Assembly (NCBI GenBank): GCA_016934325.1
Contig: JAFGSV010000024.1
Coordinates: 5,306 to 69,305, forward strand
Length of the DNA stretch: 64,000 bases
From: Candidatus Aenigmatarchaeota archaeon
GTDB lineage: Archaea > Aenigmatarchaeota > Aenigmatarchaeia > QMZP01 > JAFGSV01
Direction: 5' to 3'
A model generated the notes under the pieces. That model had not been told where the DNA came from. It did not search any database and worked only from the letters and a program-made list of their open reading frames with translations. Shown in pieces: positions 28,569-52,525 of this stretch. The stretch's first letter is position 1. Every line of letters begins with the position of its first letter. A program made the translations under genes and the position numbers.

Positions 28569-28574
28569 TCGTAA

Positions 28575-37705: not shown

Positions 37706-37716
37706 ATCTTTCATAA

Positions 37717-38820: not shown

Positions 38821-38880
38821 GGCACATGGATAGCGTGTTCGTTATAAGAAAACCTTTATTGTTTTGAAAGGAGAACGGAA

Positions 38881-39267: not shown

Positions 39268-39347
39268 CACGGATGCCGCGAACTATCTGACAGCCGGAAC
39301 CGGGATAGTGACGGCGGAATGAAAGTATTTAAGACGGGAGAACAAAC

Positions 39348-39605: not shown

Positions 39606-39622
39606 TTATATCCGCCGTTGCG

Positions 39623-39910: not shown

Positions 39911-39961
39911 CAGTTTCCCGGTCATTTTGACAGTAAAAACAGAAATGAAAGGAGCACAAAA

Positions 39962-40267
39962 ATGGAAACGCAGGAAACTACCGATTTGGCGAACCGTAAG
40001 ACGAACGCACTGGCCTCAAGAGACCTGGCGAACATCGTGCTATCAGGTGCCCAGTTATGCCAGCCCGCCGAGACTGTGGCAGTCGGCGTATTTTCGCCGG
40101 AGCTGGAAGAAATCGAAAGAAGAAGGGCCGAGAAGTCCGCCCGGCGGGACGCTGCACGAAGGGCGAAGGAGGCCGCCGCCAGGGGGCGGGCGGAAGAGGC
40201 CCGGCGGAGAGAGGAAGCCGCCGAGATCCGGCGCCAACAGAGGATAAGCGAGATAGGTTACGACTGA
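39962..40267 (+). CDS. Small protein with an Arg/Glu/Ala-rich helical C-terminus
   Basis: 101 aa, ending EEIERRRAEKSARRDAARRAKEAAARGRAEEARRREEAAEIRRQQRISEIGYD. Confidence 0.4.
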   Translation: METQETTDLANRKTNALASRDLANIVLSGAQLCQPAETVAVGVFSPELEEIERRRAEKSARRDAARRAKEAAARGRAEEARRREEAAEIRRQQRISEIGYD

Positions 40268-40335
40268 TAGAAGCTGGCGGCGGTGGTCCAGGGAGGGACG
40301 CCGCCGCTGGCGGGCTTACAGAAGGAGAAGTGATT

Positions 40336-41721
40336 ATGATAGAGCACGTCACAATAACGATTCCATGGCATATAATGAATGACGCGCTTCCCAGGCTTGA
40401 AAAGAACTACGGCAGAGAGGTCGCTTTCATCATCGCGGGCAAGCTCGAATATGGGAACACGCTTGAGTTTCTGCACCGCTCTACGTTCTTCACCGACAAT
40501 CCGGAAAGGGTCTGTTCCAGGATTGATGGGGATGGCTTGTACCGGCTGATTATGACTTACGCTCCGCGACGGGCGAGAGAGGAGGAGATAGAGCCGCTCC
40601 TTAAGGCGCTTTCGGGTTCCGGTGCGGAGAGATTCGGGTTCTTCCAGATAGTGAGAGTTCAGAGGGGCCTTTCGGCCATTGGCTGGGTGAAGGATCACGG
40701 GATGTTCTTCCCGGTGGACGTGATTAACGTCCCGGGGCCGGGGATGCTGAAGCTCTCAGTCGGACGGGCGTGGCCGCTGCCGCCCGTGAAGGCGAAGGAC
40801 GATGGCAATTCGGCCCCCGCAAGGGACGTTTTGCTGGAGGAGTGGCTCACGAGGTCGGACCGCCTGGAAGGTTTCATGGGAAACGGAAAAATAAAGGAGG
40901 GAGAGGATATACTGCTGAAGAGCATATTCTCGTCATTCGCGCTGATAGGTGCGGGACGGATGGGTCTGTGCCTGGCGAAGCATCTTATAAAGTACGGTGC
41001 GGGTAAGCGGGGTACGTTTCTGATTGTTGACCCGGATTTCCTGGAAGCCGCCAATCTGGACTCGATGGAGGTTCCGGAGAAGGCCGTCGGGATGTCCAAG
41101 GCGGATGTTGTCTCACTGGTCCTCAAATCGCTCGACAGCAACCTGCGGGTCGTGCCGGTCGTCGGGACACTGAGCGACATGGATGTCGTCCGCTCAGTTG
41201 CAGCGTGCGACTTTATCTTCATCTGTGTGGATAACGTGGCAGCTCGCGTCCAGGCGTCGATGATAGCCCAGATGTGCAACCGTGTATGCTTCGACCTTAC
41301 CGGTGCCATGGCTCGCAACGAAGATAAGAAAACGACGGCTGGTGGGGAGATTCGAATTTCGATTCTGGATTCGACTGGATGTTCGGTCTGCATGAGCGGC
41401 ATCGGCAAAGATGAATTCTTGCGGCAGGTTTCGGGCGGATACGGGGAGAGCAGATGGGATAGGCCGGAGAACTGGCAGGACGGCGGCAAGGCGGGTTCGT
41501 TCAAGGGGATAATCTCGATGGTGGCCGGCCAGACCTCGTTGTTGTTCCTGCGGCTTCTACAGGGCAGGCTGACGTCTTCGAAGTGGTTCCACCTTGATGC
41601 GGACGGCCTGATTGCCGTCCCGGAGGACGTGACGGATAGCGTGGATAGCGATGATTGCCTCTGCTGCTCCGACAGGTGGGGAGTGAGGGGGCTTGGCGAC
41701 TACTGGTTCAGAAATGGCTGA
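40336..41721 (+). CDS. Divergent E1-like (ThiF/MoeB superfamily) protein with an MPN/JAB-like but motif-less N-terminal region
   Basis: The start ATG at 40336 follows GAAGGAG. The Rossmann motif is ALIGAGRMGLCLAKHL, then LIVDPDFLEAANLDSM where the canonical D-x-D..NL-x-RQ would be. CSVC and CLCC cysteine pairs are present. The N-terminus (VTITIPWHIMNDALPRLEKNYGREVAFIIAGKLE) resembles the first strands of an MPN fold, but there is no HxH/JAMM motif. Confidence 0.65.
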   Translation: MIEHVTITIPWHIMNDALPRLEKNYGREVAFIIAGKLEYGNTLEFLHRSTFFTDNPERVCSRIDGDGLYRLIMTYAPRRAREEEIEPLLKALSGSGAERFGFFQIVRVQRGLSAIGWVKDHGMFFPVDVINVPGPGMLKLSVGRAWPLPPVKAKDDGNSAPARDVLLEEWLTRSDRLEGFMGNGKIKEGEDILLKSIFSSFALIGAGRMGLCLAKHLIKYGAGKRGTFLIVDPDFLEAANLDSMEVPEKAVGMSKADVVSLVLKSLDSNLRVVPVVGTLSDMDVVRSVAACDFIFICVDNVAARVQASMIAQMCNRVCFDLTGAMARNEDKKTTAGGEIRISILDSTGCSVCMSGIGKDEFLRQVSGGYGESRWDRPENWQDGGKAGSFKGIISMVAGQTSLLFLRLLQGRLTSSKWFHLDADGLIAVPEDVTDSVDSDDCLCCSDRWGVRGLGDYWFRNG

Positions 41722-42106
41722 AAAATACAGAATTGAATGGGCACGGGTTCTGAGTGACAGAAGACCGGCACCAGTGATGAATGAGAGCAAGGGCTTAACG
41801 GACCGGATTAGGGAACATAAGATTTGGTCGTCCAAAGGAAGTCTTGGCGTCGCAAAGCTAAAGGGGAAAAGAAGTTTTCGGAAACGGCTGAACTGGCATA
41901 TCAGTCCAGACGCGATGGAATTTATATTAGGACTCCTGGGCATCTTTCTGATGGTGGCTTTTACCATAATATGGTTTTTCTGCTGGGTTTGGGTGACGAG
42001 GCTTGTTGGACAAAGTCCCTACGTCCTCCTCGTCGGAGTGGTGTTTGTTCTGGGGTGGTGGCTGGGATTGTATTGTCTGTGTTATTTGTTTTCTGATTCA
42101 AGGTGA
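41714..42106 (+). CDS. Two-TM membrane protein translationally coupled to the E1-like gene
   Basis: The ATG at 41714 overlaps the E1-like stop (ATGGCTGA). The N-terminus is MAEKYRIEWARVLSDRR. The TM helices are FILGLLGIFLMVAFTIIWFFCWVWV and VLLVGVVFVLGWWLGLYCLCYL. Confidence 0.55.
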   Translation: MAEKYRIEWARVLSDRRPAPVMNESKGLTDRIREHKIWSSKGSLGVAKLKGKRSFRKRLNWHISPDAMEFILGLLGIFLMVAFTIIWFFCWVWVTRLVGQSPYVLLVGVVFVLGWWLGLYCLCYLFSDSR

Positions 42107-42172
42107 GCGGCTTGTTAAATTTGCAATGATTCATGAGGGGTTCGAGGCGGTTTGGTGACTACTGGTTTAGAA

Positions 42173-42688
42173 ATGGCTGATGAGAATAAAAAAATGGACT
42201 GGGCTCGCATTATCGAAAGCCAAAGAATAGAATCCAACGTTGATATTAATCATACCGGAGAGGGTAATATTTCCCGTGTCCTGGGGCGTAGCATCGCACA
42301 TGCTTTTTATAGAATCTTTTATGACAAAATAGTGAGAGAACCGGATGCATTGACAATTGCTTGTGTTGTTGCTGTGCTTGGCTTCTTAATATTCGTGTTT
42401 GCTATGTGGTTGATAGATAGCATGACTTCAGGAGAGGCAAAAAAACCACAAACGGAAATCCGGTATTCGTCTTCGAAAAAGGAAACGGAGAGCGACTATA
42501 AGCTGTGTGTCATAGACGGCGTGAAGTACATGCTCGACAGCGACGGGACGGTGAGTGGGACCGCCGTGGAATGGTTATGGGAAATGTTCAATCCGGCAAA
42601 ACCGCCAATTACACGGCACTCATTACGAAGGCCGCCGATGCGGGCTACAAGCTATTCATCGTTCTGGCCGGAGTTCATAACAGTCTGA
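42173..42688 (+). CDS. Membrane protein, N-terminal paralog of 41714-42106
   Basis: The N-terminus MADENKKMDWARIIESQR parallels MAEKYRIEWARVLSDRR. It has one TM helix (LTIACVVAVLGFLIFVFAMWLI). Its 3' end overlaps the Z1 ORF in another frame, and the last 35 or so codons look like out-of-frame read-through. Confidence 0.45.
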   Translation: MADENKKMDWARIIESQRIESNVDINHTGEGNISRVLGRSIAHAFYRIFYDKIVREPDALTIACVVAVLGFLIFVFAMWLIDSMTSGEAKKPQTEIRYSSSKKETESDYKLCVIDGVKYMLDSDGTVSGTAVEWLWEMFNPAKPPITRHSLRRPPMRATSYSSFWPEFITV

Positions 42689-44952
42689 GAAGTCAGACAC
42701 AGACAAGATTGAATGACGAGTTTCTGGGTTATGACCTTGACAGGGTCCAGAGAGTCACGGGCACGGAACAGCGAATCGGCGTGAAAAGGCTGTTTCCGGA
42801 GCACGGTATGGTCTATACCCTGACGAGCAGCAGCCAGAATGGCGATTTCAACAAGCGAATCGCATCCCAGGTCGGGATATTTCCCTCATCCGAAGGGCCT
42901 CCGATAATCCTGATCATAAAGAAAAATGTGAGTATCCTGAAGAATCTTATTACCTGGATTTCGTCCATATGTGATGAGCATGACCATAAAGGAAGGCCGC
43001 ATCTTTCCAACATACCCACTCTCATAATCGATGATGAATGTGATTATGCGTCGATAAACACCAAGGAACCCGAACTGGATGAGAACGGCAATATCAATTC
43101 TGAATGGGACCCGACAAGAACCAATCTTCTTATAAGAAGGTTGCTGAATATTTTTGACAGGTGCGCGTATGTGGGTTATACGGCCACTCCATACGCGAAT
43201 ATTTTCATTCACAAAGACAGGAAGCATCCCCGATGGGGTGATGACCTTTTCCCCCGGAGTTTTATCATAAGCCTGCCCACACCGAGCAATTATATCGGCC
43301 CGGAAAGAGTCTTCGGCTTGGAAGCGGATTCTGACAGGGGTGTTGAAGAAATCGAGGCTCTTCCCCTGATCCGGTATGTTGATGATCACACCGACATTAT
43401 TCCCGACCGGCACAAGAAAACCACCGTGGTCGCTGAATTACCTGAAAGCATGAAGCACGCGATAAAGAGCTTTCTTCTGAACTGTGCTGCTAGGTCATTG
43501 CGCCGGGAAGGAACTCCGCACAACTCAATGCTGATACATGTTACCAGATTTACGGCCGTACAGGGTCTTGTGGCCGATCTTGTTGAATCGGAACTTCAGA
43601 AACTGGCAGCCAGAATAATGAGCGGTGAAAACCTTGACGACTTCAGGAAAATCTGGGAATCGGACTTCGTACCGACGACAGAAGAGATGTCGGAACGCGG
43701 GTTTGCCGATGCTGCCAAGCACTCATGGATTGATGTTCTGAACCAGCTGAACAGGACCACAAGAACGGTCAGAATCAAGGTGATTAATGGAACAGCAAGA
43801 GATTATCTCGATTACAGGGAAACCGAGCTTGCAGCCGGTGTCAGAACAGCCGCCGGGGAAGAAGTCCCGTGGGAGGAGCAGGGACTGAATGCGATAGTAA
43901 TTGGGGGTGATAAGCTTTCAAGGGGATTAACTCTTGATGGTTTGACTGTAAGCTATTATCTCCGCGCTTCGAGAATGTACGATACTCTCATGCAGATGGG
44001 AAGATGGTTCGGTTACAAGGACGGATACAGCGATCTGTGCAGAATATACACGACTTATGAACTGGCTTCTTGGTACCGGCATATTGCCAACGCAACGATG
44101 GAACTTCGTGAGGAAATAAACTATATGGCCTCTATCGGAGAGACTCCTGACAGGTTCGGTCTCAAAGTGAGGAGTCATCCCGGAAGACTCATTGTCACGT
44201 CCGCGGGGAAGTCACGAAATGCTCAGAAGATAGACCTCTCGTATGCAGGTCAGAGAAAGGCAACAATCATATTCGACAAGAACCTGCTGAAAAACAACAT
44301 GGATGCACTGGAGAAGTTGATAAAAGAGATCGAAAGATCCAAGTATACACGGGTTCGGGAGAAGAACTTCCACTGGCGGGGAGTTTCCTCCGATACTGTC
44401 ATCAACTTTCTGCATAATTACAGAATACATGATGCAGCAATAAGGGAAGTCAAACCGGAACTATTTGCGAGGTACATTGAACGTCAGGTAAAGAATAATG
44501 AACTCACACACTGGGATGTTGTACTGGTTCATAAAGAAAAGGGTCCCGGGAAAAAACCGACAGTGAATATCGGAGGGTATCAAGTGGGATCAGTCTATCG
44601 AAAGCCAGATAAGATTGACGCCGGTATAATTTCCGTTGGTACTCTCATCAACCCGCCCGACGACATGCTGGATTTTACTGATAAAGAAACTGAGAAAGCC
44701 AAGAAAGATCCTGATTGGGGCGATAAAAAAATACCTGCAAAAATCAGGACTATTGTAAAGAAATATCGTCCCAAAGACCGTGGACTTCTGCTGATATATC
44801 TGCCTTATTGTGACACTGCCGGTAAATCATACGGCGGTCAGGGTGAGGAAGTTGTCGCCTTCGGGATAAGCTTCCCTGAAAGCCCCACGGCTGTTCCCAT
44901 TCAATATGTTGTCAATCCTGACGTATATTCGGTCGATAACGGGAGTCAATAG
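42505..44952 (+). CDS. Z1-domain P-loop ATPase
   Basis: Walker A and context are GMVMGNVQSGKTANYTALITKAADAGYKLFIVLAGVHNSLRSQTQTRL. The Z1 signature is GGDKLSRGLTLDGLTVSYYLRASRMYDTLMQMGRWFGYKDGYSDLCRIY. The N-terminus is unclear. The track start is GTG at 42505, and the first ATG before the P-loop is at 42571. Confidence 0.8.
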   Translation: MCHRRREVHARQRRDGEWDRRGMVMGNVQSGKTANYTALITKAADAGYKLFIVLAGVHNSLRSQTQTRLNDEFLGYDLDRVQRVTGTEQRIGVKRLFPEHGMVYTLTSSSQNGDFNKRIASQVGIFPSSEGPPIILIIKKNVSILKNLITWISSICDEHDHKGRPHLSNIPTLIIDDECDYASINTKEPELDENGNINSEWDPTRTNLLIRRLLNIFDRCAYVGYTATPYANIFIHKDRKHPRWGDDLFPRSFIISLPTPSNYIGPERVFGLEADSDRGVEEIEALPLIRYVDDHTDIIPDRHKKTTVVAELPESMKHAIKSFLLNCAARSLRREGTPHNSMLIHVTRFTAVQGLVADLVESELQKLAARIMSGENLDDFRKIWESDFVPTTEEMSERGFADAAKHSWIDVLNQLNRTTRTVRIKVINGTARDYLDYRETELAAGVRTAAGEEVPWEEQGLNAIVIGGDKLSRGLTLDGLTVSYYLRASRMYDTLMQMGRWFGYKDGYSDLCRIYTTYELASWYRHIANATMELREEINYMASIGETPDRFGLKVRSHPGRLIVTSAGKSRNAQKIDLSYAGQRKATIIFDKNLLKNNMDALEKLIKEIERSKYTRVREKNFHWRGVSSDTVINFLHNYRIHDAAIREVKPELFARYIERQVKNNELTHWDVVLVHKEKGPGKKPTVNIGGYQVGSVYRKPDKIDAGIISVGTLINPPDDMLDFTDKETEKAKKDPDWGDKKIPAKIRTIVKKYRPKDRGLLLIYLPYCDTAGKSYGGQGEEVVAFGISFPESPTAVPIQYVVNPDVYSVDNGSQ

Positions 44953-44961
44953 GGAAGTGTA

Positions 44962-45966
44962 ATGATGAAATATGACTTAGAAAAGATATGGGCTTTACTT
45001 GAGGGAGGAATTGAACCCGCAGAATCCAGCCACAACCGGGTGTATAGAAGACTTGATTCCGATAAGGAAACGGGAATCCGGCTCGGTGTTGTCACGCCCG
45101 GTAAAGTCCGGGAGATACTTGTACAGATAGACAGGAAGCAGCAAAAGTCTTTCTCGCCCCCTAAATGGACGGGGATGAGATTTGAAATAATATCACTGGA
45201 TATTCCAAAGAGAACACCTCACATAAGGCTCTTTCTTGCCAACAGGGAACACAAGACCGTATTCTCAACCGTCTGTCATGATATGGTCAATACGCTGCTG
45301 AAGGTCCGAGCTCCCGCTCTTCGGGGCGAGGAATTACAGAACTGTATTGAAAGATGGAGTAGCTTCTTCAGGAAATACGGTGCTGAAGGACTGTCACCGG
45401 AGATGCAACGGGGCCTCTTTGGGGAACTCACGTGGCTCGAGCTGCTGCTCTCCCGGAATATGAATGCGACGGCCGCCGTCAAATCGTGGAAGGGCTGCAG
45501 ACGAAATTTTCATGATTTTCAATACGGGGACAGGGTCGTTGAAGTAAAGACGACCATCAGAAAAGAGCCCCGCAAGGTGCGTATCAACAATGAAAGGCAG
45601 CTCGACAATCGTGGATTCAGCTCACTGTACCTTTTCATATTAACCCTTCAAAAACTTGAATCCGGAGGCCGGACGCTTCCGGGGCTGGTAGATGAAATCA
45701 GGGATGTGATCGGGAATGACAGATCGGCCGAGAATCTGTTCGAGATTGCACTCAGGGACGCCGGATTTCTTGACGCTCACGTTTCCCTTTATACAGATGG
45801 ATACAGGATTATCAAACAGGAGATTTTTGACGTGAAAAGCGGATTCCCCAGAGTTATTGAAGTTCCAAAAGGTGTGGGAGATATTGCATATACGGTGACG
45901 GTCTCGGCATGCTCCGATTTTGAATTGAAGTTTGATGATGCGGTGGATAATTTCGTGGGAACGTGA
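44962..45966 (+). CDS. PD-(D/E)xK-motif protein (DUF4420-like), the usual partner of Z1/AIPR genes
   Basis: 334 aa. The nuclease-like core is FHDFQYGDRVVEVKTT. It sits in the position typical of Z1-AIPR clusters. Confidence 0.65.
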   Translation: MMKYDLEKIWALLEGGIEPAESSHNRVYRRLDSDKETGIRLGVVTPGKVREILVQIDRKQQKSFSPPKWTGMRFEIISLDIPKRTPHIRLFLANREHKTVFSTVCHDMVNTLLKVRAPALRGEELQNCIERWSSFFRKYGAEGLSPEMQRGLFGELTWLELLLSRNMNATAAVKSWKGCRRNFHDFQYGDRVVEVKTTIRKEPRKVRINNERQLDNRGFSSLYLFILTLQKLESGGRTLPGLVDEIRDVIGNDRSAENLFEIALRDAGFLDAHVSLYTDGYRIIKQEIFDVKSGFPRVIEVPKGVGDIAYTVTVSACSDFELKFDDAVDNFVGT

Positions 45967-47984
45967 ACCTGATGGGCGATCTTAAAGAGGCTTCAGAGAG
46001 ATTTCATTCTGATATCAGCACAACGGCTCTCGAACTTGACCTGTTAAAAGAACACAAGTTTGTTGAGGATGTTGGTGAAATCCTTGTGGACGCGGGGGAG
46101 CTTGAAGACTGCGTCAGGTGTTCATATCAGGGACGGGGGACCAAGGTTGACGGGTATTTCTATGACGCAGAATTTGACGTTCTATACTTGATCGTGTCCC
46201 ACTGGATAGATGAGACCGATCCGGCAAAATCAAGAGTCGCACCCGGGGAAATAGACAAGATATTTAAAAGATGCGAAAACTTTTTCAGCCGTAGCCTTAA
46301 GCAACTGTTCAGTAAAATAGAGATTGCCAATGAGGCTCATGACCTCGCCCATCTCATATACGAAACGAAAAAGGAAATCACCGCCGTTAAAATATTCCTG
46401 GTCACCGATGGCATATGTCCCAAAAGACATGCGGAAGTTGTTGATATAGACGGCATAGAGGTTACCAGAGTAATATGGGACATCGAGCGAATTCTGACGT
46501 TCACGGAAACCGGCGAGCGAGAGCCCATAATCATTGATTTTACAGAAAATGGTGGCCCCATTCCGTGTCTGGTGGAAAACACAGAAGATAAGAGATACAC
46601 GGTTTATCTGGCATATATTACAGGACAGGCTCTTGCAGATATGTATTCAAGGTGGGGAACGAGACTGCTTGATATGAATGTAAGAGTCTTTCTGTCCGCA
46701 CGGGGCAAGGTGAACAAGGGAATCAGGGAGACTATTGTTAACGAACCAGACATGTTCTGCGCTTACAACAACGGAATAACGGTTTTTGCCAGGGAAATAG
46801 ATTATACATCTCTGGATAACGGTCTTGTCGGGATATCAAAGGCCACGGGCTTCCAGATAGTTAACGGCGGTCAGACAGTTGCTTCTCTCTACCATGCGAG
46901 CAAGAAGCAGAAAGCACAATTATCCCAGATATCGGTTCAGATGAAACTCATTGTTGTTAATAACAGGGATGATATTGAAAAGCTTGTACCCAGAATAAGC
47001 GAGTATTCGAATACACAGAACAAGGTCAGTATGGCGGATTTATCTGCAAACGATCCACCTCATCCGGAATTGCACGAGATATCGAAACGCCTGAAGGCAC
47101 CCGATCCGACAGGAGGATCCCGGCAGACTTACTGGTTCTACGAGAAAGCACGCGGCAGCTATGAGGAGACAAAAAGACTTGAGGCAAAAACCCCGGCCAA
47201 AAGAAGAGAGTTCGAGGCCCTGTATCCAAAGAAACAGCGATTTGATAAAAGTCTTTTCGGGAAATCCTGGAATACGTATCTGAGAAAGCCTCATACAGTG
47301 AGTCTTGGTGCTCAGAAAAATTTCGCAAATTTTAACATGTGGCTCAAAGAACAAAAGGAAGAGGATCTGAATGAGTTTTTTAAGAAAACGGTGGCGCTGG
47401 TTTTATTGTGGAAAAATGCCGAACGGATTGTCCGAAAGCAACCTTTCGAAGGATACAGGCACAACATTGTGACATACACACTTGCCTGGATATTCGAGTT
47501 ATCAGACAGCAGAATCGACCTGGCCAAAATCTGGAGAGAGCAGGTTATACATGAAAAGATAAACGATGCAGTTGAGGAAATGTCTTTGATTGTTAATGAA
47601 CACATAAGGAAAACTGACAAAAACGTCACGGAATGGTGCAAGAGCGAAGACTGCTGGAAAAAGCTTCTGGATAAAGATTATCAACTCCCCAAAGGTATAG
47701 AAGACGCTTATATAGCGCCTGGTTCGAAAATAGACGTTTATGATCCAAGAATCAGGGAGGAGGTAGAGGTTATCGAATTCTGCAAATCAAAGGGATCTCA
47801 AGCCTGGTGGGATCTGGCAAAATGGCTGAAGGATAGACAGTTTTTGTCCGCCAAAGCAAGAAGTCAGTGCGGTAATATGGGTAAAGCACTTGGAAGGGGG
47901 AAAGACCCAAGTTATTTCCTCTCCAAGGCGTGCAAGAAAGCGTGGGAGGATGCTGAAGTCAGGGGCTGGTCCCCAAATGATTAA
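45963..47984 (+). CDS. AIPR (abortive-infection phage-resistance) family protein
   Basis: 673 aa. The family-type motif is GFQIVNGGQTVASLYHA. It overlaps the upstream gene by 4 nt. Confidence 0.8.
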   Translation: MNLMGDLKEASERFHSDISTTALELDLLKEHKFVEDVGEILVDAGELEDCVRCSYQGRGTKVDGYFYDAEFDVLYLIVSHWIDETDPAKSRVAPGEIDKIFKRCENFFSRSLKQLFSKIEIANEAHDLAHLIYETKKEITAVKIFLVTDGICPKRHAEVVDIDGIEVTRVIWDIERILTFTETGEREPIIIDFTENGGPIPCLVENTEDKRYTVYLAYITGQALADMYSRWGTRLLDMNVRVFLSARGKVNKGIRETIVNEPDMFCAYNNGITVFAREIDYTSLDNGLVGISKATGFQIVNGGQTVASLYHASKKQKAQLSQISVQMKLIVVNNRDDIEKLVPRISEYSNTQNKVSMADLSANDPPHPELHEISKRLKAPDPTGGSRQTYWFYEKARGSYEETKRLEAKTPAKRREFEALYPKKQRFDKSLFGKSWNTYLRKPHTVSLGAQKNFANFNMWLKEQKEEDLNEFFKKTVALVLLWKNAERIVRKQPFEGYRHNIVTYTLAWIFELSDSRIDLAKIWREQVIHEKINDAVEEMSLIVNEHIRKTDKNVTEWCKSEDCWKKLLDKDYQLPKGIEDAYIAPGSKIDVYDPRIREEVEVIEFCKSKGSQAWWDLAKWLKDRQFLSAKARSQCGNMGKALGRGKDPSYFLSKACKKAWEDAEVRGWSPND

Positions 47985-48078
47985 TTAACGGCATAAGATT
48001 GAAGTAAGCTTTAAGAATGTGTGTCCTACAATCTGGAATATGCCATACGGCCTATTCCGAAATAATTGGAGAAATACC

Positions 48079-48276
48079 ATGAATGAATATCAGGCCAGTC
48101 GAATTGCTGAAGTCCTCGGCGGTGAACCATGGCAATCAGGAGGAGATATATGGCTGGTGATGAATTACCGGCAGGACGGTAAGCTCGTAGTCATATCTGA
48201 TGATGTTATATGCCTGTATGATAATCAAGAATGTTTTGATAGTGCGGAGCCTACGACATCGATTCTTCTCAGATAG
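48079..48276 (+). CDS. Small hypothetical protein
   Basis: 65 aa from MNEYQASRIAEVLGG, preceded by GGAGAAATACC. No family was recognised. Confidence 0.3.
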   Translation: MNEYQASRIAEVLGGEPWQSGGDIWLVMNYRQDGKLVVISDDVICLYDNQECFDSAEPTTSILLR

Positions 48277-48312
48277 CAACCGGGATTAGGACATCCAAAT
48301 CCGTTCTATCGA

Positions 48313-49110
48313 TTACCACTTCTCGCACATTCCCTGATAGCCGCAAATCCCGCACATATAGCCCTCGTTCGGATAATAGACGCCTGAGTTGATGGCGTTC
48401 TCGACCTGTCCGGCGAGGCGTGAGAAGCGGTCTATGTCGGCCTGGGTTCGCGTTCCGTATAACTGCTGGATCTTCGGCTGCTTGTTCCTGACCATCACGT
48501 CGAGCCTGACGCCGCTTTCTTCCTCCCCGTAAAGCGTGCGGAAGGCCAGCGAATAGGCCGTGAGCTGGACGTCCTTCTCCGCTGTATTCTCCGGGAAACT
48601 TCTCTTCGTTGTCTTGTGGTCTATGATGCATGCCTGGTCGTCGATGAGGTCGATGTAGCCTTTCAATGGAAGCCGCGTTCCCGGCGTCTCGATCAGGAAT
48701 TCGCGTTCGACCTCGATTGGCTGGACGCCCGGAGCGATCTGGTCGAAGTATGCCTTAAGGAGGCCAACGCCATCGTCTTTGAACTGACCTGGTTTTTCAC
48801 CTTTCGCGAACTCCGTTTCCCTGGCTTCCCGGTCCCAGTATTCGCTGAAAAGCTCGCTGATGTGGTCAATGATGATGTCATGTCCGGTCTTCATCTTCTG
48901 CTTGTAGTTATCGTTCAGGGTCTGATGGATCGTCCTGCCAAGGGTCAGGTCGCCCGTCGGCGGTGATTTCAGACCGCATACGTACCTGAAGAAGTATTGA
49001 AGCGGACAGCGAAGGTACATCTTGAGCTGGGAGACTGACAGGTGGGGCATTATCGTGGTTGCCGTCCCCACCTGCCTGTCCGAAGAGATTTCACTGACTG
49101 CCTCTGCCAT
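48313..49110 (-). CDS. Cas4/RecB-like PD-(D/E)xK exonuclease with a four-Cys cluster
   Basis: The N-terminal Cys context is SVSQLKMYLRCPLQYFF. The nuclease core is GYIDLIDDQACIIDHKT. The C-terminus is CGICGYQGMC. There is no CRISPR array or other cas gene nearby. Confidence 0.75.
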   Translation of the reverse strand: MAEAVSEISSDRQVGTATTIMPHLSVSQLKMYLRCPLQYFFRYVCGLKSPPTGDLTLGRTIHQTLNDNYKQKMKTGHDIIIDHISELFSEYWDREARETEFAKGEKPGQFKDDGVGLLKAYFDQIAPGVQPIEVEREFLIETPGTRLPLKGYIDLIDDQACIIDHKTTKRSFPENTAEKDVQLTAYSLAFRTLYGEEESGVRLDVMVRNKQPKIQQLYGTRTQADIDRFSRLAGQVENAINSGVYYPNEGYMCGICGYQGMCEKW

Positions 49111-49525
49111 GGTTCCCCCCGCCGTTCTGCTGTGCCGGAGCGTCCGGCTCGCCCTCGAAGACGTAGCGTTCGAAGAATCTTGCCGTCTCTATGGTCAGAT
49201 CCTTCTTGGCTTCGGGGTCAAGCTGCACGGGTGCGAGGATCTCGCTGGCGGATTTCAGGCACGACATCCTCGCGATCTGCCTGTCCTTGCCGTTTGGCCG
49301 GTACTGCGGCTGACCGTTGCCGTTGCCGTCGACGGGCTCTACGTCCGTCATGTTCTTGAAGTTCCCGCTCTGCTTGTAGTCGAAGTCGACGGTGACTCCT
49401 TCCTGCAGCGTGTCGAAGTACTTGTCGTCCCAGACGCTGTATCGCTCTCCCCCGACCTGGACGGTCAGGTATTTCTGTCCCTTTCTGCTTTCGTTCTCCC
49501 AGACCTGTTCTATCATCCCTCTCAT
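49091..49525 (-). CDS. Hypothetical protein with an OB-fold-like N-terminus
   Basis: 144 aa (IEQVWENESRKGQKYLTVQVGGERYSVWDDKYF...). It has a Gly/Asn/Gln-rich linker and an acidic, Gly-rich tail. It overlaps the Cas4-like gene by 20 nt. Confidence 0.45.
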   Translation of the reverse strand: MRGMIEQVWENESRKGQKYLTVQVGGERYSVWDDKYFDTLQEGVTVDFDYKQSGNFKNMTDVEPVDGNGNGQPQYRPNGKDRQIARMSCLKSASEILAPVQLDPEAKKDLTIETARFFERYVFEGEPDAPAQQNGGGNHGRGSQ

Positions 49526-49553
49526 ACTGTACCTCCAATTTTATTCAAGGCAG

Positions 49554-49739
49554 CTACACGATGTCCGCCGCGTCTTCCAGTATCGCCTTGGGGCAGAAGC
49601 GGCGGCACCGCTTCACCTCTTTTGAGGAAGGTATCTTCTTCAGCACGGCACACCATACGCCCCTGCCGTTTTCGATACCGCAGATGCACTCGGTGCACTT
49701 AAGCTGGGAAGAGCCTTCCGGTCTGTAGCTGCCTGACAT
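49554..49739 (-). CDS. Small Cys-rich protein (possible zinc ribbon)
   Basis: 61 aa with CTECIC...WC...CRRFC. It is co-directional with the two genes downstream. Confidence 0.3.
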   Translation of the reverse strand: MSGSYRPEGSSQLKCTECICGIENGRGVWCAVLKKIPSSKEVKRCRRFCPKAILEDAADIV

Positions 49740-49809
49740 TACATGAGGTATCTCAGTTCGTCATTTTAGGGTAATGGACAGAGATATTGCGGTTTGTGCG
49801 ATTAAGATA

Positions 49810-50697
49810 CTATTCAAGAAGTGAATCACCATAACTTGATTTCAACTGCTCCCACCAAGTCGATAAATCCTGTTGTGAAGGAAATTGTGTAATCTGGATT
49901 CTATCTGAACATCCAAAAAACGGTTTACGTGCCGCCTCACACCATTGTTCTGTTCCAATAGTTCCATTGCCTTCAAGATTGAGCTTAACATATTCAAGAG
50001 TGTCCCGGTCTGCTGCAAATATGGATTTATCTGCCCATGCAGCTAGAAATGTGTTCACTTGACCAAGTGTAAGGTTTCGACATCGTTCTGTTGCCTCCTG
50101 GCGGCCTCCAAAGATGATGTGGTGCTTAGAAAGAGGTACCATCAAGACCGTACCTCCCCGTAGGAGGCCGTTTGTTTGACAAACAGGATTGTCAGTGATA
50201 ACAATGTAACATTCGTCAGGGAAGACCTTCATTTTCCATCGAAAGTCTGCTCTTGTCAGAATGTCTTGCCATTCGGTAAACCAGTTGGACCTGAATTCGT
50301 TGGCTAATAAAGACACTAATGCATCAAGAGTCTCGTTTTCTCTTTGGGCAATCGCTTTTGCTATGCATATGAAAGCGTTTGTACGGCAGAGCATAGCGGC
50401 AACCCAGTCCACCAATGCCGCACCCCCCTCACCAGAGAGTTCTCTCGTATTTCCGTGATCGACTATAGATGGGTAGTACCTTGCAAAGTTTTGTTCAATT
50501 GGTATAAGCAAGTCAGAATCAAGGTTTGAAACCAGGTCGAGGTAATAATTGTCAATATAAAGAATACGCCTGGGTGACCGACGACGAGTACATATTCTAA
50601 AACTCGGCTTGTGAAGTTCGATGACTTTGTCGTCTTCACCTGTAAACTTTTTTATCATCATTTGAGGAATCAGATGCTGGCGATTTCCTGCTGGCAT
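49810..50697 (-). CDS. DUF4238-like protein
   Basis: I prefer the start MPAGNRQHLIPQMMIKKF, which fits the H-x-[IV]-P-Q..[LI]..F N-terminal signature of the family. The track ORF extends to 50748. Confidence 0.55.
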   Translation of the reverse strand: MPAGNRQHLIPQMMIKKFTGEDDKVIELHKPSFRICTRRRSPRRILYIDNYYLDLVSNLDSDLLIPIEQNFARYYPSIVDHGNTRELSGEGGAALVDWVAAMLCRTNAFICIAKAIAQRENETLDALVSLLANEFRSNWFTEWQDILTRADFRWKMKVFPDECYIVITDNPVCQTNGLLRGGTVLMVPLSKHHIIFGGRQEATERCRNLTLGQVNTFLAAWADKSIFAADRDTLEYVKLNLEGNGTIGTEQWCEAARKPFFGCSDRIQITQFPSQQDLSTWWEQLKSSYGDSLLE

Positions 50698-50841
50698 TGC
50701 AGATTCTCTCCTAATGTGGTTTATATTGCCTTCTATTGAAATCGGCATATTATGAACTTGATATTAAACTATCAGGTGAAAAAGAGGCAAAATTCTTTTC
50801 AAAATGTCTGAGGGGACGATTTTTACAGTAAAAGATATGAG

Positions 50842-52020
50842 TTATAATTGAGCAAGTTTCCTTTTGAGAACTTCCCGGAATTCCTGATCTTGAATAAGCC
50901 TGTCCATCATTTCATCGGCTTTCTTTCTGTCGAGCTCTTTCTGAACGATTGCGTTCGCTGTTTCCTCATCCAGGACTGTCCCGCACCTGCTGCAGAATCT
51001 GTGGCCTGGTGGATTCGAGTGCTTGCACCTCGGACAGTCCATGATTGTGAATTTGTTGTTGCTCTCGTCTTCCTTGGGGATTGGCTTGTTATGCATCTTA
51101 AGCAGAGCGTTGTCTATGTCACGCCCTGAAAGATGCACGTAGGTCGAGGCCATGTCCGATCCCTGGACCCATCCGAAGTACTCATTCATCTGGGCCTCTG
51201 TGAGACAAGTGGCAAGATGTGTCGCCCTGCTATGGCGGAAGTTGTGCGGGTTCACGGATTTTTCAATCTGTGCCCTGCGGGCTGCGTTTTTGAGAATCGT
51301 GTGAGCCTGGGTGTATGCTATCCGGTTCACATTGGAATGGCTCGTTATCCACAACGGTGCTGCAGGATTACGCCGTCTTGGATGCTCATTGAGCCAGTCC
51401 GTCACGTACTGTGCACACGCAATCAGCAGCAGACGCCTCGGACCGGTCTTTCCATTGACGCTGATTTGAAAACCATGGGGATGCTGATTTATGTGCCTGA
51501 TCTGCATGCCGAGGACTTCTCCTATCCTGCAGCCGCTCTCATAGAGCATTGCAATAAACGCCCTGTCCCGGGTGCTCATGGCTGCGGCTATCATGGCATG
51601 AATCTCCTCCTGGGTGAGCAGCTCCTCCGGCAATTTCCGGTGGCGGTTTGTGAATCCCGTCTTGATCCATCTGACCTCGTGCGGATACTCTTCCGTGCCT
51701 CTCAGCCAGCGGAAGAACTTCTTCAGGGTGACTCGGACGTCATGCTTGGTCCAGTCCGAGTAATCGGACCGCTCTATCTTCCTCACGAGTTCCTGGATGT
51801 CTTCGCGATTGCATCTTCGAAAGTCCTTTCCGAGCTGATTGTCGATTGCACGGAGCGTGTATATGTATTTGATTACCCGCCTGATTCCGAGGCCTTCAGA
51901 AAAGCAGAAGTCTGAGAACTTGAGGATGGCTCTCTTGTTCTCAGGGTATTCCTTCGATGCACGGAGCTGCTTATGGAGCCTGGCAAGCCTTCTTTCGAAC
52001 TCTTCTTTCTCATCCGGCAT
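50842..52020 (-). CDS. Tyrosine integrase (full length, with a C-terminal zinc ribbon)
   Basis: The catalytic residues are the Arg in ESGCRIGEVL, H-x-x-R in HNFRHSRATHLA, and the Tyr in MASTYVHLSGRD. It has an N-terminal core-binding-like domain and a CPRC...CSRC ribbon. It starts 60 nt from the tRNA 3' end. Confidence 0.9.
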   Translation of the reverse strand: MPDEKEEFERRLARLHKQLRASKEYPENKRAILKFSDFCFSEGLGIRRVIKYIYTLRAIDNQLGKDFRRCNREDIQELVRKIERSDYSDWTKHDVRVTLKKFFRWLRGTEEYPHEVRWIKTGFTNRHRKLPEELLTQEEIHAMIAAAMSTRDRAFIAMLYESGCRIGEVLGMQIRHINQHPHGFQISVNGKTGPRRLLLIACAQYVTDWLNEHPRRRNPAAPLWITSHSNVNRIAYTQAHTILKNAARRAQIEKSVNPHNFRHSRATHLATCLTEAQMNEYFGWVQGSDMASTYVHLSGRDIDNALLKMHNKPIPKEDESNNKFTIMDCPRCKHSNPPGHRFCSRCGTVLDEETANAIVQKELDRKKADEMMDRLIQDQEFREVLKRKLAQL

Positions 52021-52078
52021 GAGTGATAACCTACGGGGTGCTTTAAGAGGGTTATGTAGGCATCACGCTTTTAAGGTC

Positions 52079-52092
52079 ATGCCTCGGGCGGG
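52079..52092. repeat. tRNA-proximal copy of the 14-bp att-like repeat ATGCCTCGGGCGGG
   Basis: It covers the discriminator base, the 3' acceptor strand and part of the T-stem of the tRNA. It is identical to 6070-6083. Confidence 0.55.
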
Positions 52093-52223
52093 ATTTGAAC
52101 CCACGACCTCCGCGTATCCCATTTAGATCATCGAAAACTCTCGTTTTCTCAGCGCTCACAAAGACACGCTTATGAGCTTCGCCCATTATTTGTGCGGCGC
52201 TCTAACCACTGAGCCACCGAGGC
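52080..52223 (-). tRNA. tRNA with anticodon CAU (elongator Met or Ile2 type) interrupted by two putative introns
   Basis: The reverse strand reads GCCTCGG-TG-GCTC-AGTGGTTA-GAGC-G-CCGC [16 nt] GCTCATA [55 nt] A-CGCGG-AGGTC-GTGGG-TTCAAAT-CCCGC-CCGAGGC-A. Removing both inserts gives a 73-nt cloverleaf. Its anticodon stem is CCGCG/CGCGG and its loop is CUCAUAA. No CCA is encoded. Confidence 0.7.
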
Positions 52224-52525
52224 TTTTGCATGGATTGTTTACTTGTTCTCGTATTTATATCTTGTTAGGCGTTTCATTTAAAATCTCATTGAAGCTTTTA
52301 ATAACGAAAGCCATATATAATGTATGTTCACCCAGTGCAGGAAATGCCCTTATTTTACCAGGGAGAAGGACAAGCTTCGTAACGGCCACATAGTACTCGG
52401 ATTCTGCAGGCTCAGGCAGAAGCACATAACCGACACGACCATAAACAGGCCCCAGTGCAAGGAAAGGGCCGTTATGACCATACCAGATGAAGAGTCATCA
52501 GGAAAGCAAAAAGAACCATCTTTGT

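What the first reader, a model, noticed from the sequence alone, without database searches (positions are those of the whole stretch)
52080..52223. tRNA(CAU) gene whose anticodon lies on a 7-nt micro-exon between two introns, and which is also the integration site
The mature cloverleaf appears only if two inserts are removed.

Intron 1 is 16 nt (52178-52193) and lies between tRNA positions 30 and 31. It sits in a textbook bulge-helix-bulge. The outer helix is GAG/CUC. The central 4-bp helix is CGCC/GGCG. The 3-nt bulges are GC|A and AA|G. A 2-bp inner helix CA/UG closes it.

Intron 2 is 55 nt (52116-52170) at the canonical 37/38 site. Its central helix is CUCA/UGGG (with one G-U pair) and its 3' bulge is AU|A. 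I cannot form the intron-side outer helix, so this is a relaxed motif.

The spliced product has a perfect CCGCG/CGCGG anticodon stem and a CUCAUAA loop. That is very unlikely by chance.

Multi-intron tRNAs are described mainly in Thermoproteales-type archaea. Finding one here, at an att site, is worth a look. Intron 2 also contains a perfect hairpin GAAAAC-GAGA-GUUUUC.
Basis: seen in the sequence. Interest (0 to 1): 0.6.

Follow-up and report, generated by a model that had tools for sequence, protein, structure and literature searches.

The report
Two-intron methionine tRNA gene, island-flanked
This is a real, functional-looking methionine tRNA gene of a tiny DPANN archaeon (Aenigmatarchaeota) that is split by two introns, leaving the anticodon on a 7-base exon, and that also borders a probable 46-kb integrated island; it is a clear example of known phenomena, not a new kind of element.

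Summary
Rfam's tRNA model matches 52223-52080 (- strand) at 51.7 bits, with 80 nt where the model has 9. Removing 16 nt (52193-52178, site 30/31) and 55 nt (52170-52116, site 37/38) gives a 73-nt RNA whose minimum-energy fold is the cloverleaf.

Comparison with relatives settles the exon structure. Aenigmatarchaeota relatives carry the same exons with the 30/31 intron absent, 15 nt or 25 nt long, or with a T-loop intron instead.

Intron 1 sits in a strict bulge-helix-bulge (BHB) motif and intron 2 in a relaxed one. The two motifs share nucleotides, so splicing must be sequential.

Two named Aenigmatarchaeota MAGs and one relative's metagenome contig hold ARMAN-2-like epsilon2 splicing-endonuclease genes, the broad-specificity type. 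The window's own genome could not be searched.

Intron 2 also carries a K-turn (CUGA, hairpin, GAUGA) beside an antisense stretch that places wobble C34 at the +5 position. This looks like a one-sided box C/D guide. It is conserved in over 100 archaeal tRNA(CAU) introns and was already suggested for Nanoarchaeum equitans.

The tRNA 3' end (14 bp) recurs at 6070-6083, with an integrase beside the tRNA, so the att-site reading is likely.

No RNA data were found. Verdict: new member of known kinds, moderate interest.

The parts
52080..52223 (-). tRNA(CAU) gene, probably elongator tRNA-Met; 144 nt with two introns; no encoded CCA
   Evidence: Rfam RF00005 at 51.7 bits, model positions 1-71. The spliced 73-mer folds as a cloverleaf.
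52194..52223 (-). Exon 1, tRNA positions 1-30 (acceptor 5' strand, D-arm, CCGC of the anticodon stem)
   Evidence: Identical in L081-L090.
52178..52193 (-). Intron 1, 16 nt, non-canonical site 30/31, in a strict hBHBh' motif
   Evidence: Absent in L083, L085, L130 and L084. It is 15 nt in L081 and 25 nt in L082, L086 and L088.
52171..52177 (-). 7-nt micro-exon GCUCAUA (positions 31-37) carrying anticodon CAU (52174-52172)
52116..52170 (-). Intron 2, 55 nt, canonical site 37/38, in a relaxed BHB (anticodon stem, central helix CUCA/UGGG, bulges UA|A and AU|A, no inner helix)
52080..52115 (-). Exon 3, positions 38-73 (A38, CGCGG, variable loop, T-arm, acceptor 3' strand, discriminator A)
52153..52162 (-). 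Antisense ('guide') element UUUGUGAGCG inside intron 2. It is complementary to G31-A37 plus two intron bases. Its 5th base upstream of CUGA pairs with C34.
   Evidence: Duplex energy -11.4 kcal/mol against -5.6 +/- 1.6 for shuffled introns, 0.05% of shuffles as good. Conserved across more than 100 tRNA(CAU) introns.
52149..52152 (-). Box D'-like CUGA (non-bulged strand of the K-turn)
52133..52148 (-). Hairpin GAAAAC-GAGA-GUUUUC, the canonical stem of the K-turn
   Evidence: The stem covaries in relatives: 39 distinct stems.
52126..52132 (-). Box C'-like GAUGAUC: 3-nt bulge GAU, then GA and U (giving tandem G.A pairs and a U.U pair with CUGA)
   Evidence: the words GAUGA or AAUGA in 73 of 115 introns
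52252..52260 (-). TATA-like box AUAUAAAUA, 29-37 nt upstream of the mature 5' end (candidate promoter)
   Evidence: by sequence only
52079..52092 (.). Candidate attR core ATGCCTCGGGCGGG (last 13 nt of the tRNA plus 1 nt)
   Evidence: It is the only 14-mer that 52020-52260 shares with the rest of the window.
6070..6083 (.). Candidate attL core, an identical 14-mer in direct orientation
50842..52020 (-). Tyrosine integrase (Phage_integrase domain with an N-terminal SAM-like domain and a C-terminal zinc ribbon). Its start codon lies 60 nt 3' of the tRNA.
   Evidence: Pfam PF00589, E 9.5e-20
6084..52078 (.). About 46-kb integrated island. It holds Orc1/Cdc6 (6329-7369, -), HerA-like and SNF2-like ATPases, a DUF6094 methyltransferase, an AAA_15 ATPase, a ThiF/E1-like gene, Z1-DUF4420-AIPR (42505-47984), a PD-(D/E)XK nuclease and DUF4238.
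   Evidence: Pfam. G+C mostly 0.38-0.52 (three 2-kb bins at 0.54-0.59) against 0.56-0.60 in the core to the right. No synteny with relatives.

Best explanation
The feature is the functional elongator tRNA-Met(CAU) gene of an Aenigmatarchaeota (DPANN) archaeon, interrupted by two protein-spliced (BHB) introns.

Shown:
- The gene, its exon-intron boundaries and the mature cloverleaf.
- The strict hBHBh' motif around the 16-nt intron at 30/31.
- The relaxed motif around the 55-nt intron at 37/38.
- The presence or absence of the 30/31 intron among relatives with the same exons.
- The two splicing motifs use the same nucleotides: precursor positions 27-28 and 48-50.

Inferred maturation pathway:
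1. The precursor first folds so that the 3' strand of the D-stem and the anticodon-loop bases clamp intron 1 into its BHB. A broad-specificity endonuclease cuts it and a ligase joins the exons. Relatives encode the epsilon2 (ARMAN-2-like) endonuclease.
2. This completes the CCGCG/CGCGG anticodon stem.
3. Intron 2 then pairs its antisense stretch with the anticodon loop, 11 bp after removal of intron 1. Its K-turn (CUGA, hairpin, GAUGA) recruits L7Ae, Nop5 and fibrillarin, which 2'-O-methylate C34.
4. The RNA refolds into the canonical BHB, intron 2 is removed and CCA is added.

Separately, the last 13 nt of the gene served as the attB core for a 46-kb island. The island was integrated by the adjacent tyrosine recombinase, and the gene stays intact because the element re-supplies those bases.

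My probabilities:
- real two-intron functional tRNA gene: 0.9
- Met rather than Ile2: 0.85
- intron 1 spliced before intron 2: 0.6
- Cm34 guide function: 0.55-0.6
- att site of the island: 0.75
For: Gene and exon structure:
- Rfam match and insert arithmetic.
- The cloverleaf is the minimum-energy fold of the spliced product.
- Orthologues with identical exons lack or vary intron 1.
- The same BHB recurs at the same site with changed inner helices: CA/UG, AUCC/GGAU, CUAGA/UCUAG. There are wobble changes in the central helix: GGCG to GGUG, CGCC to CGCU.
- Synteny of the upstream HerA-like gene at 66-82% amino-acid identity.

Endonuclease:
- An epsilon2-type EndA lies 1.4 kb from the orthologous tRNA in L089, and another in L236. 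Both match PDB 4FZ2 end to end at E 4e-95 and 1e-96.
- The search listed the best 120 of 1367 homologues, nearly all 390-424 aa. Eight of them are named Aenigmatarchaeota or Aenigmarchaeota.

Guide:
- Complementarity is significant in the window alone.
- In 118 distinct tRNA(CAU) introns the element UGAGC-NN-xGA is followed by a stem or short loop and then (G/A)AUGA. In 59 of 115 of them a stem of at least 3 bp abuts both GA dinucleotides, against 5.9 expected from shuffles.
- A stable C/D-like RNA was found in the tRNA-Met intron of N. equitans by RNA-seq (PMC3491384).
- Cm34 of archaeal elongator tRNA-Met is known to be guided by C/D RNPs acting on the intron-containing precursor (PMC2584109).

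Island.
Against: - No RNA evidence. Three metatranscriptomes of the same study hold nothing on this stretch.
The endonuclease type is inferred from relatives.
- Intron 2 lacks the inner helix of a full BHB.
- The thermodynamic model prefers another register for intron 1 (-10.7 against -5.4 kcal/mol locally). It also prefers the guide conformer over the splicing conformer (-48.8 against -39.3). The splicing folds therefore need protein help.
- There is no box C and no terminal box C/D K-turn, so the 'guide' is only half of a canonical sRNA. Activity of such a natural half-guide has not been demonstrated.
- The spacing between guide and D' was part of my first search pattern. The unbiased sample still required a particular anticodon arm.
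- The left flank of the island could not be matched to any relative, so no empty site was seen.
Confidence: 0.8

Rival explanations
1. The gene encodes tRNA-Ile2 (CAU, with C34 converted to agmatidine) and not elongator tRNA-Met. The intron architecture would be the same, but the antisense element could not be a Cm34 guide.
For: Anticodon CAU and discriminator A73 are shared by both tRNAs. No isotype-specific model was available; Rfam has only the generic tRNA model.
Against: - G1-C72 and the 5' sequence GCC...GUGGCUCAG look like archaeal elongator tRNA-Met. Archaeal tRNA-Ile usually starts GGGCC...AUAGCUCAG (from my own knowledge, not tested here).
- The homologous intron RNA of N. equitans lies in the elongator tRNA-Met (PMC3491384).
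- A conserved antisense element registered on C34 fits the known Cm34 of elongator tRNA-Met (PMC2584109).
Confidence: 0.12
2. Intron 2's K-turn and antisense stretch do not guide methylation. The K-turn binds L7Ae only to chaperone folding or protect the precursor or the excised intron. The helix with the anticodon loop is the usual anticodon-intron pairing, or the excised intron acts on another target in trans.
For: - There is no box C and no second K-turn, and canonical archaeal sRNPs use both.
- The cis duplex is short (5-6 bp) in many relatives.
- Randau 2012 named no target.
Against: - The 5th base upstream of the D'-like box pairs with C34 in every intron that carries the motif, although the loop, stem and 3' part vary freely. 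That set includes the unbiased sample. The spacing itself was part of the search and parsing patterns.
- The layout mirrors the D' guide of the pre-tRNA-Trp intron, which does direct Cm34.
- Cm34 in tRNA-Met is known to be RNA-guided in archaea and in humans.
Confidence: 0.35
3. The gene is a decaying or chimeric copy: an assembly artefact across a repeated exon, or a pseudogene disrupted by insertions.
For: In the source-sample run X1, the Logan contigs break inside the 30-nt exon 1. Depth there is 54 against 6.6-10.9 on the flanks, because several strains share that exon.
Against: - One Logan contig of 11.5 kb covers 51900-52220. That is both introns, exon 3 and the integrase side, with no differences.
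- The HerA-like neighbour lies upstream of the same tRNA in all relatives.
- Exons are perfectly conserved while introns vary.
- Both inserts sit in splicing motifs.
Confidence: 0.04
4. The 14-bp repeat is a coincidence. The low-GC region is a patchwork of older insertions not integrated at this tRNA by this integrase.
For: - The repeat is short. About 0.1 such matches are expected between a 240-nt region and the window if position is ignored (my estimate).
- No empty site was seen.
- DNA to the left of 6070 is also non-core.
Against: - The repeat coincides exactly with the tRNA 3' end, is in direct orientation, and lies on the integrase side.
- Orc1/Cdc6 sits just inside the far end.
- Homology between L085 and L086 ends exactly at the tRNA 3' end, so this tRNA is a recombination boundary in the lineage.
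Confidence: 0.2

Closest known systems
Multiple-intron tRNA genes of Thermoproteales, Korarchaeum, M. kandleri, N. equitans and ARMAN-1/2 (Sugahara 2007/2008; Fujishima 2011; reviewed in PMC4033280, PMC5829648)
   Same: Short BHB introns at non-canonical sites combined with the canonical 37/38 intron. They depend on a broad-specificity endonuclease. Introns are gained and lost quickly among relatives.
   Different: The host lineage is Aenigmatarchaeota, which the papers I could read did not analyse. The two introns lie only 7 nt apart, so the anticodon is on a micro-exon and the two BHBs overlap.
Stable C/D-like RNA in the 66-nt intron of Nanoarchaeum equitans elongator tRNA-Met (Randau 2012, PMC3491384)
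   Same: The same tRNA, the same intron site, box C/D-like elements and a GC- or AU-rich hairpin.
   Different: That paper named no target and no N+5 register. Here there is a single K-turn and an antisense stretch on C34, and the gene carries a second intron.
Box C/D guide in the intron of euryarchaeal pre-tRNA-Trp (Pyrococcus sR50, Haloferax volcanii; Clouet d'Orval 2001, Singh 2004, as cited in PMC4090602 and PMC2584109)
   Same: An intron-borne guide upstream of box D' pairs with the tRNA's own anticodon loop and puts C34 at +5. The guide fold and the splicing fold exclude each other.
   Different: The Trp intron is a complete sRNA (C, D', C', D; two guides, also for U39). This one has only the D'/C' pair and one guide.
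Trans-acting guides for Cm34 of elongator tRNA-Met: sR49 (Pyrococcus) and sR-tMet (Haloferax) (PMC2584109; Joardar 2011)
   Same: The same target nucleotide. They act on the intron-containing precursor.
   Different: Those are separate genes. Grosjean 2008 stated that the tRNA-Met guide is 'always exonic', meaning not in the intron. Here the guide is in the intron.
ARMAN-2 epsilon2 three-unit splicing endonuclease (PDB 4FZ2; PMC3239211, PMC3488258)
   Same: EndA of about 400 aa in relatives (L089, L236) aligns over the whole length at E about 1e-95. That type cleaves relaxed and non-canonical BHBs.
   Different: It was found in relatives, not in the window's own genome. Activity was not tested.
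Integration of archaeal plasmids and viruses into tRNA genes by tyrosine recombinases whose gene stays intact, unlike SSV-type integrases (from my own knowledge)
   Same: An intact integrase gene beside the tRNA 3' end, and a direct repeat of the tRNA 3' end at the far border.
   Different: The core is only 14 bp. The cargo is mostly defence-type genes. Excision has not been shown.

Membership tests
Archaeal BHB-intron-containing tRNA gene (multiple introns) | Removing the inserts restores a canonical cloverleaf tRNA | tested here: met
   Rfam 51.7 bits. The minimum-energy fold of the spliced 73-mer is the cloverleaf at -34.5 kcal/mol.
Archaeal BHB-intron-containing tRNA gene (multiple introns) | Each exon-intron boundary lies in a 3-nt bulge of a bulge-helix(4 bp)-bulge motif | tested here: met
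   Intron 1 has a strict hBHBh' motif. Intron 2 has both bulges, the 4-bp helix (one G-U pair) and the outer helix but no inner helix, which is a relaxed form.
Archaeal BHB-intron-containing tRNA gene (multiple introns) | Relatives confirm the exon junctions | tested here: met
   L083, L085, L130 and L084 read CCGCGCUCAUAA without the 30/31 insert.
Archaeal BHB-intron-containing tRNA gene (multiple introns) | The genome encodes a splicing endonuclease able to cut non-canonical or relaxed motifs | tested here: inconclusive
   The window's own genome could not be searched. Relatives L089 and L236 encode an epsilon2-type EndA.
Archaeal BHB-intron-containing tRNA gene (multiple introns) | The spliced RNA is observed | tested here: inconclusive
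   Three metatranscriptomes of the same study hold no contig on this stretch. Contigs show presence, not absence.
Box C/D methylation guide sRNA | Terminal box C (RUGAUGA) and box D (CUGA) forming a K-turn | tested here: not met
   There is no box C between the 5' splice site and the antisense stretch. The CUGA near the 3' end in some relatives is AUGG here and is accounted for by the BHB helix.
Box C/D methylation guide sRNA | Internal C'/D' K-turn or K-loop | tested here: met
   CUGA, 6-bp hairpin, GAU bulge, GA, U. The stem covaries in relatives, 59 of 115 against 5.9 expected.
Box C/D methylation guide sRNA | Antisense element ending next to box D/D', with the target paired to the 5th nucleotide upstream | tested here: met
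   UUUGUGAGCG|CUGA: the 5th base G pairs with C34. The duplex is 9 bp, or 11 bp after removal of intron 1.
Box C/D methylation guide sRNA | L7Ae, Nop5 and fibrillarin are present, and the target is methylated | not testable with these tools
tRNA-targeting integrative element (tyrosine recombinase) | Integrase gene next to the tRNA 3' end | tested here: met
   PF00589, E 9.5e-20, at 50842-52020 (-), 60 nt from the tRNA.
tRNA-targeting integrative element (tyrosine recombinase) | Direct repeat of the tRNA 3' end at the distal border | tested here: met
   A 14-mer at 52079-52092 and at 6070-6083.
tRNA-targeting integrative element (tyrosine recombinase) | Empty site in relatives, or an excision product | tested here: inconclusive
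   Synteny stops at the tRNA 3' end, but the distal flank has no counterpart. No joints appear in run X1.

The most novel reading that the evidence does not exclude
The two introns may form one ordered maturation device built around the 7-nt micro-exon. Excision of the 30/31 intron would be the switch. It completes the anticodon stem, lengthens the intron-2 guide duplex from 9 to 11 bp and licenses Cm34 formation by a natural single-K-turn ('half') C/D RNP. Only then could the RNA refold for the second splicing event: splice, then methylate, then splice.

In addition, intron alleles of this tRNA appear to move among co-occurring Aenigmatarchaeota independently of the flanking genes, possibly through recombination at the invariant exons.
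Probability: 0.25. Interest if true: 0.6.

Novelty: new member of a known kind. Interest (0 to 1): 0.4.

Why it matters
The locus gives a clean, naturally varying series for studying how archaeal tRNA genes become disrupted. One tRNA with invariant exons occurs with no 30/31 intron, with a 15-16-nt or 25-nt one, or with a T-loop intron, in otherwise syntenic genomes. Relatives in the lineage encode the rare epsilon2 endonuclease.

It also adds a two-intron context to the intron-borne, one-sided box C/D-like guide for C34 of tRNA-Met. If that guide is active, a single K-turn with a short cis guide would be enough for RNA-guided methylation, and the timing of modification would be tied to splicing order.

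For annotation, it shows that a standard tool (ARAGORN) misses an essential tRNA in DPANN genomes.

The att-site aspect bears on the old idea that introns protect tRNA genes from integrating elements. Here the introns lie outside the 14-bp core, and the gene was targeted anyway.

Tried and rejected
- **ARAGORN**: it found no tRNA in the window or in seven related loci.
- **Genome tools**: The window's own genome could therefore not be searched for other CAU tRNAs, EndA, fibrillarin, Nop5 or L7Ae.
- **Direct-repeat tool**: at its default seeds it missed the 14-bp att repeat. A k-mer script found it.
- **Mismatch searches**: searches with 22-mers of the tRNA 3' half found no second copy.
- **RNA evidence**: three metatranscriptomes of the source study hold nothing here.
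- **Empty site**: relatives share nothing with the window to the left of 52080. The 595-aa Cys-rich ORF at 462-2249 is not an orthologue of the gene downstream of the tRNA in L081 (BLASTP E 0.34).
- **Box C or a second K-turn**: I looked in intron 2 and at the intron-1/micro-exon junction (GCGAAGC). I rejected this because it is not conserved in alleles that lack intron 1.
- **Nested BHB-like motif inside intron 2**: this has a 7-bp outer helix. I rejected it as chance because L081 lacks it.
- **BHB motifs as evidence**: the loose BHB scanner shows that such motifs are common by chance, so I did not use it as evidence on its own.
- There was no fibrillarin hit. The EndA hits were then verified against PDB and Pfam.
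- **Papers not held**: Clouet d'Orval 2001 (PMC92551) and Joardar 2011 (PMC3256356).
Full report
**1. The observation**

Read on the - strand, 52223-52080 is GCCUCGGUGGCUCAGUGGUUAGAGCGCCGC | ACAAAUAAUGGGCGAA | GCUCAUA | AGCGUGUCUUUGUGAGCGCUGAGAAAACGAGAGUUUUCGAUGAUCUAAAUGGGAU | ACGCGGAGGUCGUGGGUUCAAAUCCCGCCCGAGGCA.

Rfam's tRNA model matches the whole stretch end to end (51.7 bits, gathering score 29). It places 80 nt where the model has 9, which is 71 extra nt, exactly 16+55. ARAGORN reports nothing.

It has a perfect CCGCG/CGCGG anticodon stem and the loop CUCAUAA.

**2. The organism**

- The best relatives of the flanking genes and of the tRNA are MAGs named Candidatus Aenigmatarchaeota or 'uncultured archaeon'.
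- Earlier notes of this scan on other pieces of the same genome also say Aenigmatarchaeota.
- The source sample is a sediment metagenome.

**3. Is the exon structure right?**

A 26-nt word of exon 1 retrieved ten loci from genome and metagenome collections. All carry the same mature tRNA, identical or with one change in the variable loop. Their inserts differ:

| Loci | 30/31 intron | Other introns |
|---|---|---|
| L083, L085 | none (CCGCGCUCAUAA is contiguous) | 37/38 |
| L081 | 15 nt | 37/38 |
| L082, L086, L088 | 25 nt, with a longer inner hairpin | 37/38 |
| L084, L087, L090 | none | 37/38 plus a 38-nt intron in the T-loop (59/60) |
| L089 | none | 37/38 plus a T-loop intron |

L130, found by the pattern scan, has a near-identical tRNA (one exon difference) and also only the 37/38 intron.

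More distant tRNA(CAU) genes with different exons (L100, L131, L132, L196) also have an intron at 30/31.

A BHB with the same central helix recurs at the same site. It reads CGCC/GGCG, with wobble variants GGUG and CGCU. The bulges (G/A)C|A and AA|G are the same, and the inner helices differ: CA/UG, AUCC/GGAU, CUAGA/UCUAG.

My loose BHB scanner finds about ten BHB-like motifs per sequence by chance. The nearest-neighbour energy model also prefers another register locally (-10.7 against -5.4 kcal/mol). The motif alone would therefore not be convincing. The comparative data are.

Exon invariance against free intron variation, plus conserved synteny of the upstream HerA-like gene (66-82% amino-acid identity), argue against a pseudogene.

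**4. Intron 2 and splicing order**

Intron 2 lies at the canonical site. Its motif has:
- the anticodon stem as outer helix;
- bulge AU|A;
- central helix C32-A35 / UGGG, with one G-U pair;
- bulge UA|A;
- no inner helix.

This is a relaxed form.

The intron-1 motif uses precursor positions 22-28 and 48-50. The intron-2 motif uses 27-30, 47 and 48-51. The two cannot coexist. With a 7-nt middle exon, cutting all four sites at once would release the anticodon fragment, so splicing must be stepwise.

Removing intron 1 first is the simpler order, because it completes the outer helix for intron 2. This order is an inference.

**5. Which endonuclease?**

The window's genome could not be searched. 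Fishing in the fetched DNA with a remembered M. jannaschii EndA gave hits that I then verified:
- L089 encodes a 400-aa protein 1.4 kb from the orthologous tRNA.
- L236, a named Aenigmatarchaeota MAG, encodes a 424-aa one.

Both align over their whole length with the three-unit epsilon2 endonuclease of ARMAN-2 (PDB 4FZ2; E 4e-95 and 1e-96). They match single-unit and two-unit enzymes only weakly.

There are 1367 homologues at E <= 1e-20. Of the best 120 listed, nearly all are 390-424 aa and eight are named Aenigmatarchaeota or Aenigmarchaeota by their sources.

The epsilon2 type is one of the two types known to cut non-canonical and relaxed motifs (PMC5829648, PMC3239211). First-reader notes record other disrupted tRNAs in this same genome: a T-arm intron in tRNA-Leu and another multi-intron tRNA. 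I did not check these.

**6. What else is in intron 2**

The 'perfect hairpin' is flanked by CUGA on its 5' side and GAUGAUC on its 3' side. This is the K-turn consensus:
- a non-bulged strand ending in GA next to the stem;
- on the other strand a 3-nt bulge (G-A-U), then GA, then U opposite U.

It matches a box D'/C' pair.

Immediately upstream lies UUUGUGAGCG, complementary to G31-A37 and two intron bases. Its 5th base upstream of CUGA pairs with wobble C34, which is the register of the C/D 'N+5' rule.

In the window alone the target-intron duplex (-11.4 kcal/mol) is matched by 0.05% of shuffled introns. The duplex is 9 bp with intron 1 present and 11 bp after its removal. The guide fold is predicted to be more stable than the splicing fold (-48.8 against -39.3 kcal/mol).

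Two collection scans show that the design is general.
- The first scan included the spacing in its pattern. It gave 62 distinct tRNA(CAU) contexts, mostly named DPANN lineages (Aenigmatarchaeota, Nanohaloarchaea, Woesearchaeota, Nanoarchaeia) or unclassified archaeal MAGs. It also gave 65 non-tRNA controls, mostly bacterial. RUGA followed within 80 nt in 61 of 62 tRNA contexts against 26 of 65 controls.
- The second scan was defined only by the exon sequence. It gave 71 intron-bearing genes, most with (U)UGAGC-NN-(U/G/A)GA, a stem-loop and (G/A)AUGA. These include MAGs labelled Methanosarcinales and Euryarchaeota. A minority have a different intron type.

Over 118 distinct introns, a stem of at least 3 bp abuts both GA dinucleotides in 59 of 115, against 5.9 expected from shuffles. 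There are 39 different stem sequences. The others have short loops (K-loops).

There is no box C and no second K-turn, so this is not a canonical C/D sRNA.

**7. Literature**

- Grosjean et al. [quoted passage not shown] They state that the guide for Cm34 of pre-tRNA-Met is always a separate sRNA acting on the intron-containing precursor (PMC2584109).
- Yoshihisa 2014 calls the Trp intron a unique example (PMC4090602).
- Randau 2012 found by RNA-seq a stable RNA in the 66-nt intron of N. equitans elongator tRNA-Met with box C/D-like elements, without naming a target (PMC3491384).
- Earlier agents of this scan reported the same K-turn-plus-antisense design in tRNA-Met introns of other genomes. 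I reached it independently before reading those notes and took from them only the Randau reference, which I then read.

The guide is therefore a further member of a kind already suggested. Its function is inferred, not shown.

**8. The att site**

- A 392-aa tyrosine recombinase starts 60 nt 3' of the tRNA on the same strand. It has the Phage_integrase domain (E 9.5e-20) with a SAM-like N-terminal domain and a zinc ribbon.
- The only 14-mer shared between 52020-52260 and the rest of the window is ATGCCTCGGGCGGG, at 52079-52092 and 6070-6083. It is in direct orientation and coincides with the last 13 nt of the tRNA.
- Ignoring position, about 0.1 such matches are expected. Requiring the tRNA end, the right side and the right orientation brings this to about 0.004 (my estimate).
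- Between the repeats lie Orc1/Cdc6 just inside the far end and many defence-type genes. These include Z1-DUF4420-AIPR, a PD-(D/E)XK nuclease, SNF2-like and HerA-like ATPases, a DUF6094 methyltransferase and an AAA_15 ATPase.
- G+C there is mostly 0.38-0.52 (three 2-kb bins reach 0.54-0.59), against 0.56-0.60 in the core to the right.
- Relatives are syntenic up to the tRNA and share nothing beyond it. The 90%-identical alignment of L085 and L086 stops exactly at the tRNA 3' end.

I could not find an empty site, because DNA to the left of 6070 is also not shared with relatives. I put this reading at about 0.75.

The core lies in exon 3, outside both introns, so the introns did not prevent integration.

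**9. Intron turnover**

On a tree of the neighbouring HerA-like protein, the 30/31 intron is patchy:
- The window and L081 have it, while the window's closest relatives (L001, L087, L090) lack it and have the T-loop intron instead.
- L086 has it, while its sister L085 lacks it and carries the intron-2 allele of L083.

This indicates rapid gain or loss, or exchange of alleles through the invariant exons.

**10. Assembly check**

In the source run, one 11.5-kb Logan contig covers both introns, exon 3 and the integrase side without differences. The graph breaks only within exon 1, which several strains in the sample share (depth 54 against 6.6-10.9). The two-intron structure is not an assembly artefact.

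**11. Verdict**

The object is a new member of known kinds: a multi-intron archaeal tRNA, an intron-borne C/D-like guide, and a tRNA-targeting island. Its useful features are the micro-exon, the overlapping BHBs and the natural allele series. It lacks any RNA-level evidence.

Noticed in passing
L089:4321-5523 (+); L236:3096-4370 (-): Aenigmatarchaeota relatives encode a 400-424-aa three-unit splicing endonuclease that aligns end to end with the ARMAN-2 epsilon2 enzyme (PDB 4FZ2, E about 1e-95). A 2018 paper (PMC5829648) reported this type only from Micrarchaeota-related organisms. In L089 the gene lies 1.4 kb from the tRNA-Met gene.
   Followed up: partly
L084:1265-1450; L087; L090; L089:2826-2970: Orthologues of the same tRNA carry an intron in the T-loop (59/60) directly 5' of the CCCGCCCGAGGCA stretch that is the att core in the window. 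If the integrase needs more than 14 bp, such an intron would break its target. This is the intron-as-protection idea of Randau and Soll, as cited in PMC4033280.
   Followed up: no
L085:6354-6476 versus L086:4592-4743: Two genomes whose neighbouring HerA-like proteins are nearly identical (90% DNA identity over 4.7 kb) carry different intron sets in this tRNA. They also lose all similarity exactly at its 3' end. Intron alleles do not follow the tree of the flanking gene.
   Followed up: partly
window 52194-52223: In the source metagenome run, exon 1 has a word depth of 54 against 6.6-10.9 on its flanks. A contig with a different upstream flank (L086-like) ends there. Several co-occurring strains therefore share the exon, and short-read graphs break at it.
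   Followed up: partly
L214, L218, L229, L284, L296, L261, L275 (tRNA(CAU) introns): A second intron family (GGGUCUUCGG...GUGACGACAAGAGCGCUCUGGGCAA) lacks the D'/C' layout. It has a C'-like GUGACGA, then GAGCGC, then CUGG or CUGA near the 3' end. By the +5 rule this would register on C32, not C34.
   Followed up: no
window 42505-47984: A co-directional Z1 (PF10593), DUF4420 (PD-(D/E)XK-like) and AIPR (abortive-infection) gene trio sits inside the island. It is followed by a PD-(D/E)XK/Cas4-like nuclease (48313-49110, -) and DUF4238 (49810-50748, -).
   Followed up: no
window 6329-7369 (-): An Orc1/Cdc6 gene lies just inside the distal att repeat, which suggests that the island derives from a plasmid-like or virus-like replicon.
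   Followed up: no
window 2260-6069: DNA to the left of the distal repeat is also low in G+C and shares nothing with relatives. It holds a nucleotidyltransferase gene at 4837-5484. This is consistent with an older insertion at the same site, as an earlier first-reader note proposed.
   Followed up: partly
window 52104-52169 (-): The 5' end of intron 2 (GCGUGUCUU) can pair over 9 bp with the 3' splice-site region (GGGAUACGC). This helix is part of the minimum-energy fold of the full precursor and competes with both the guide fold and the splicing fold.
   Followed up: no
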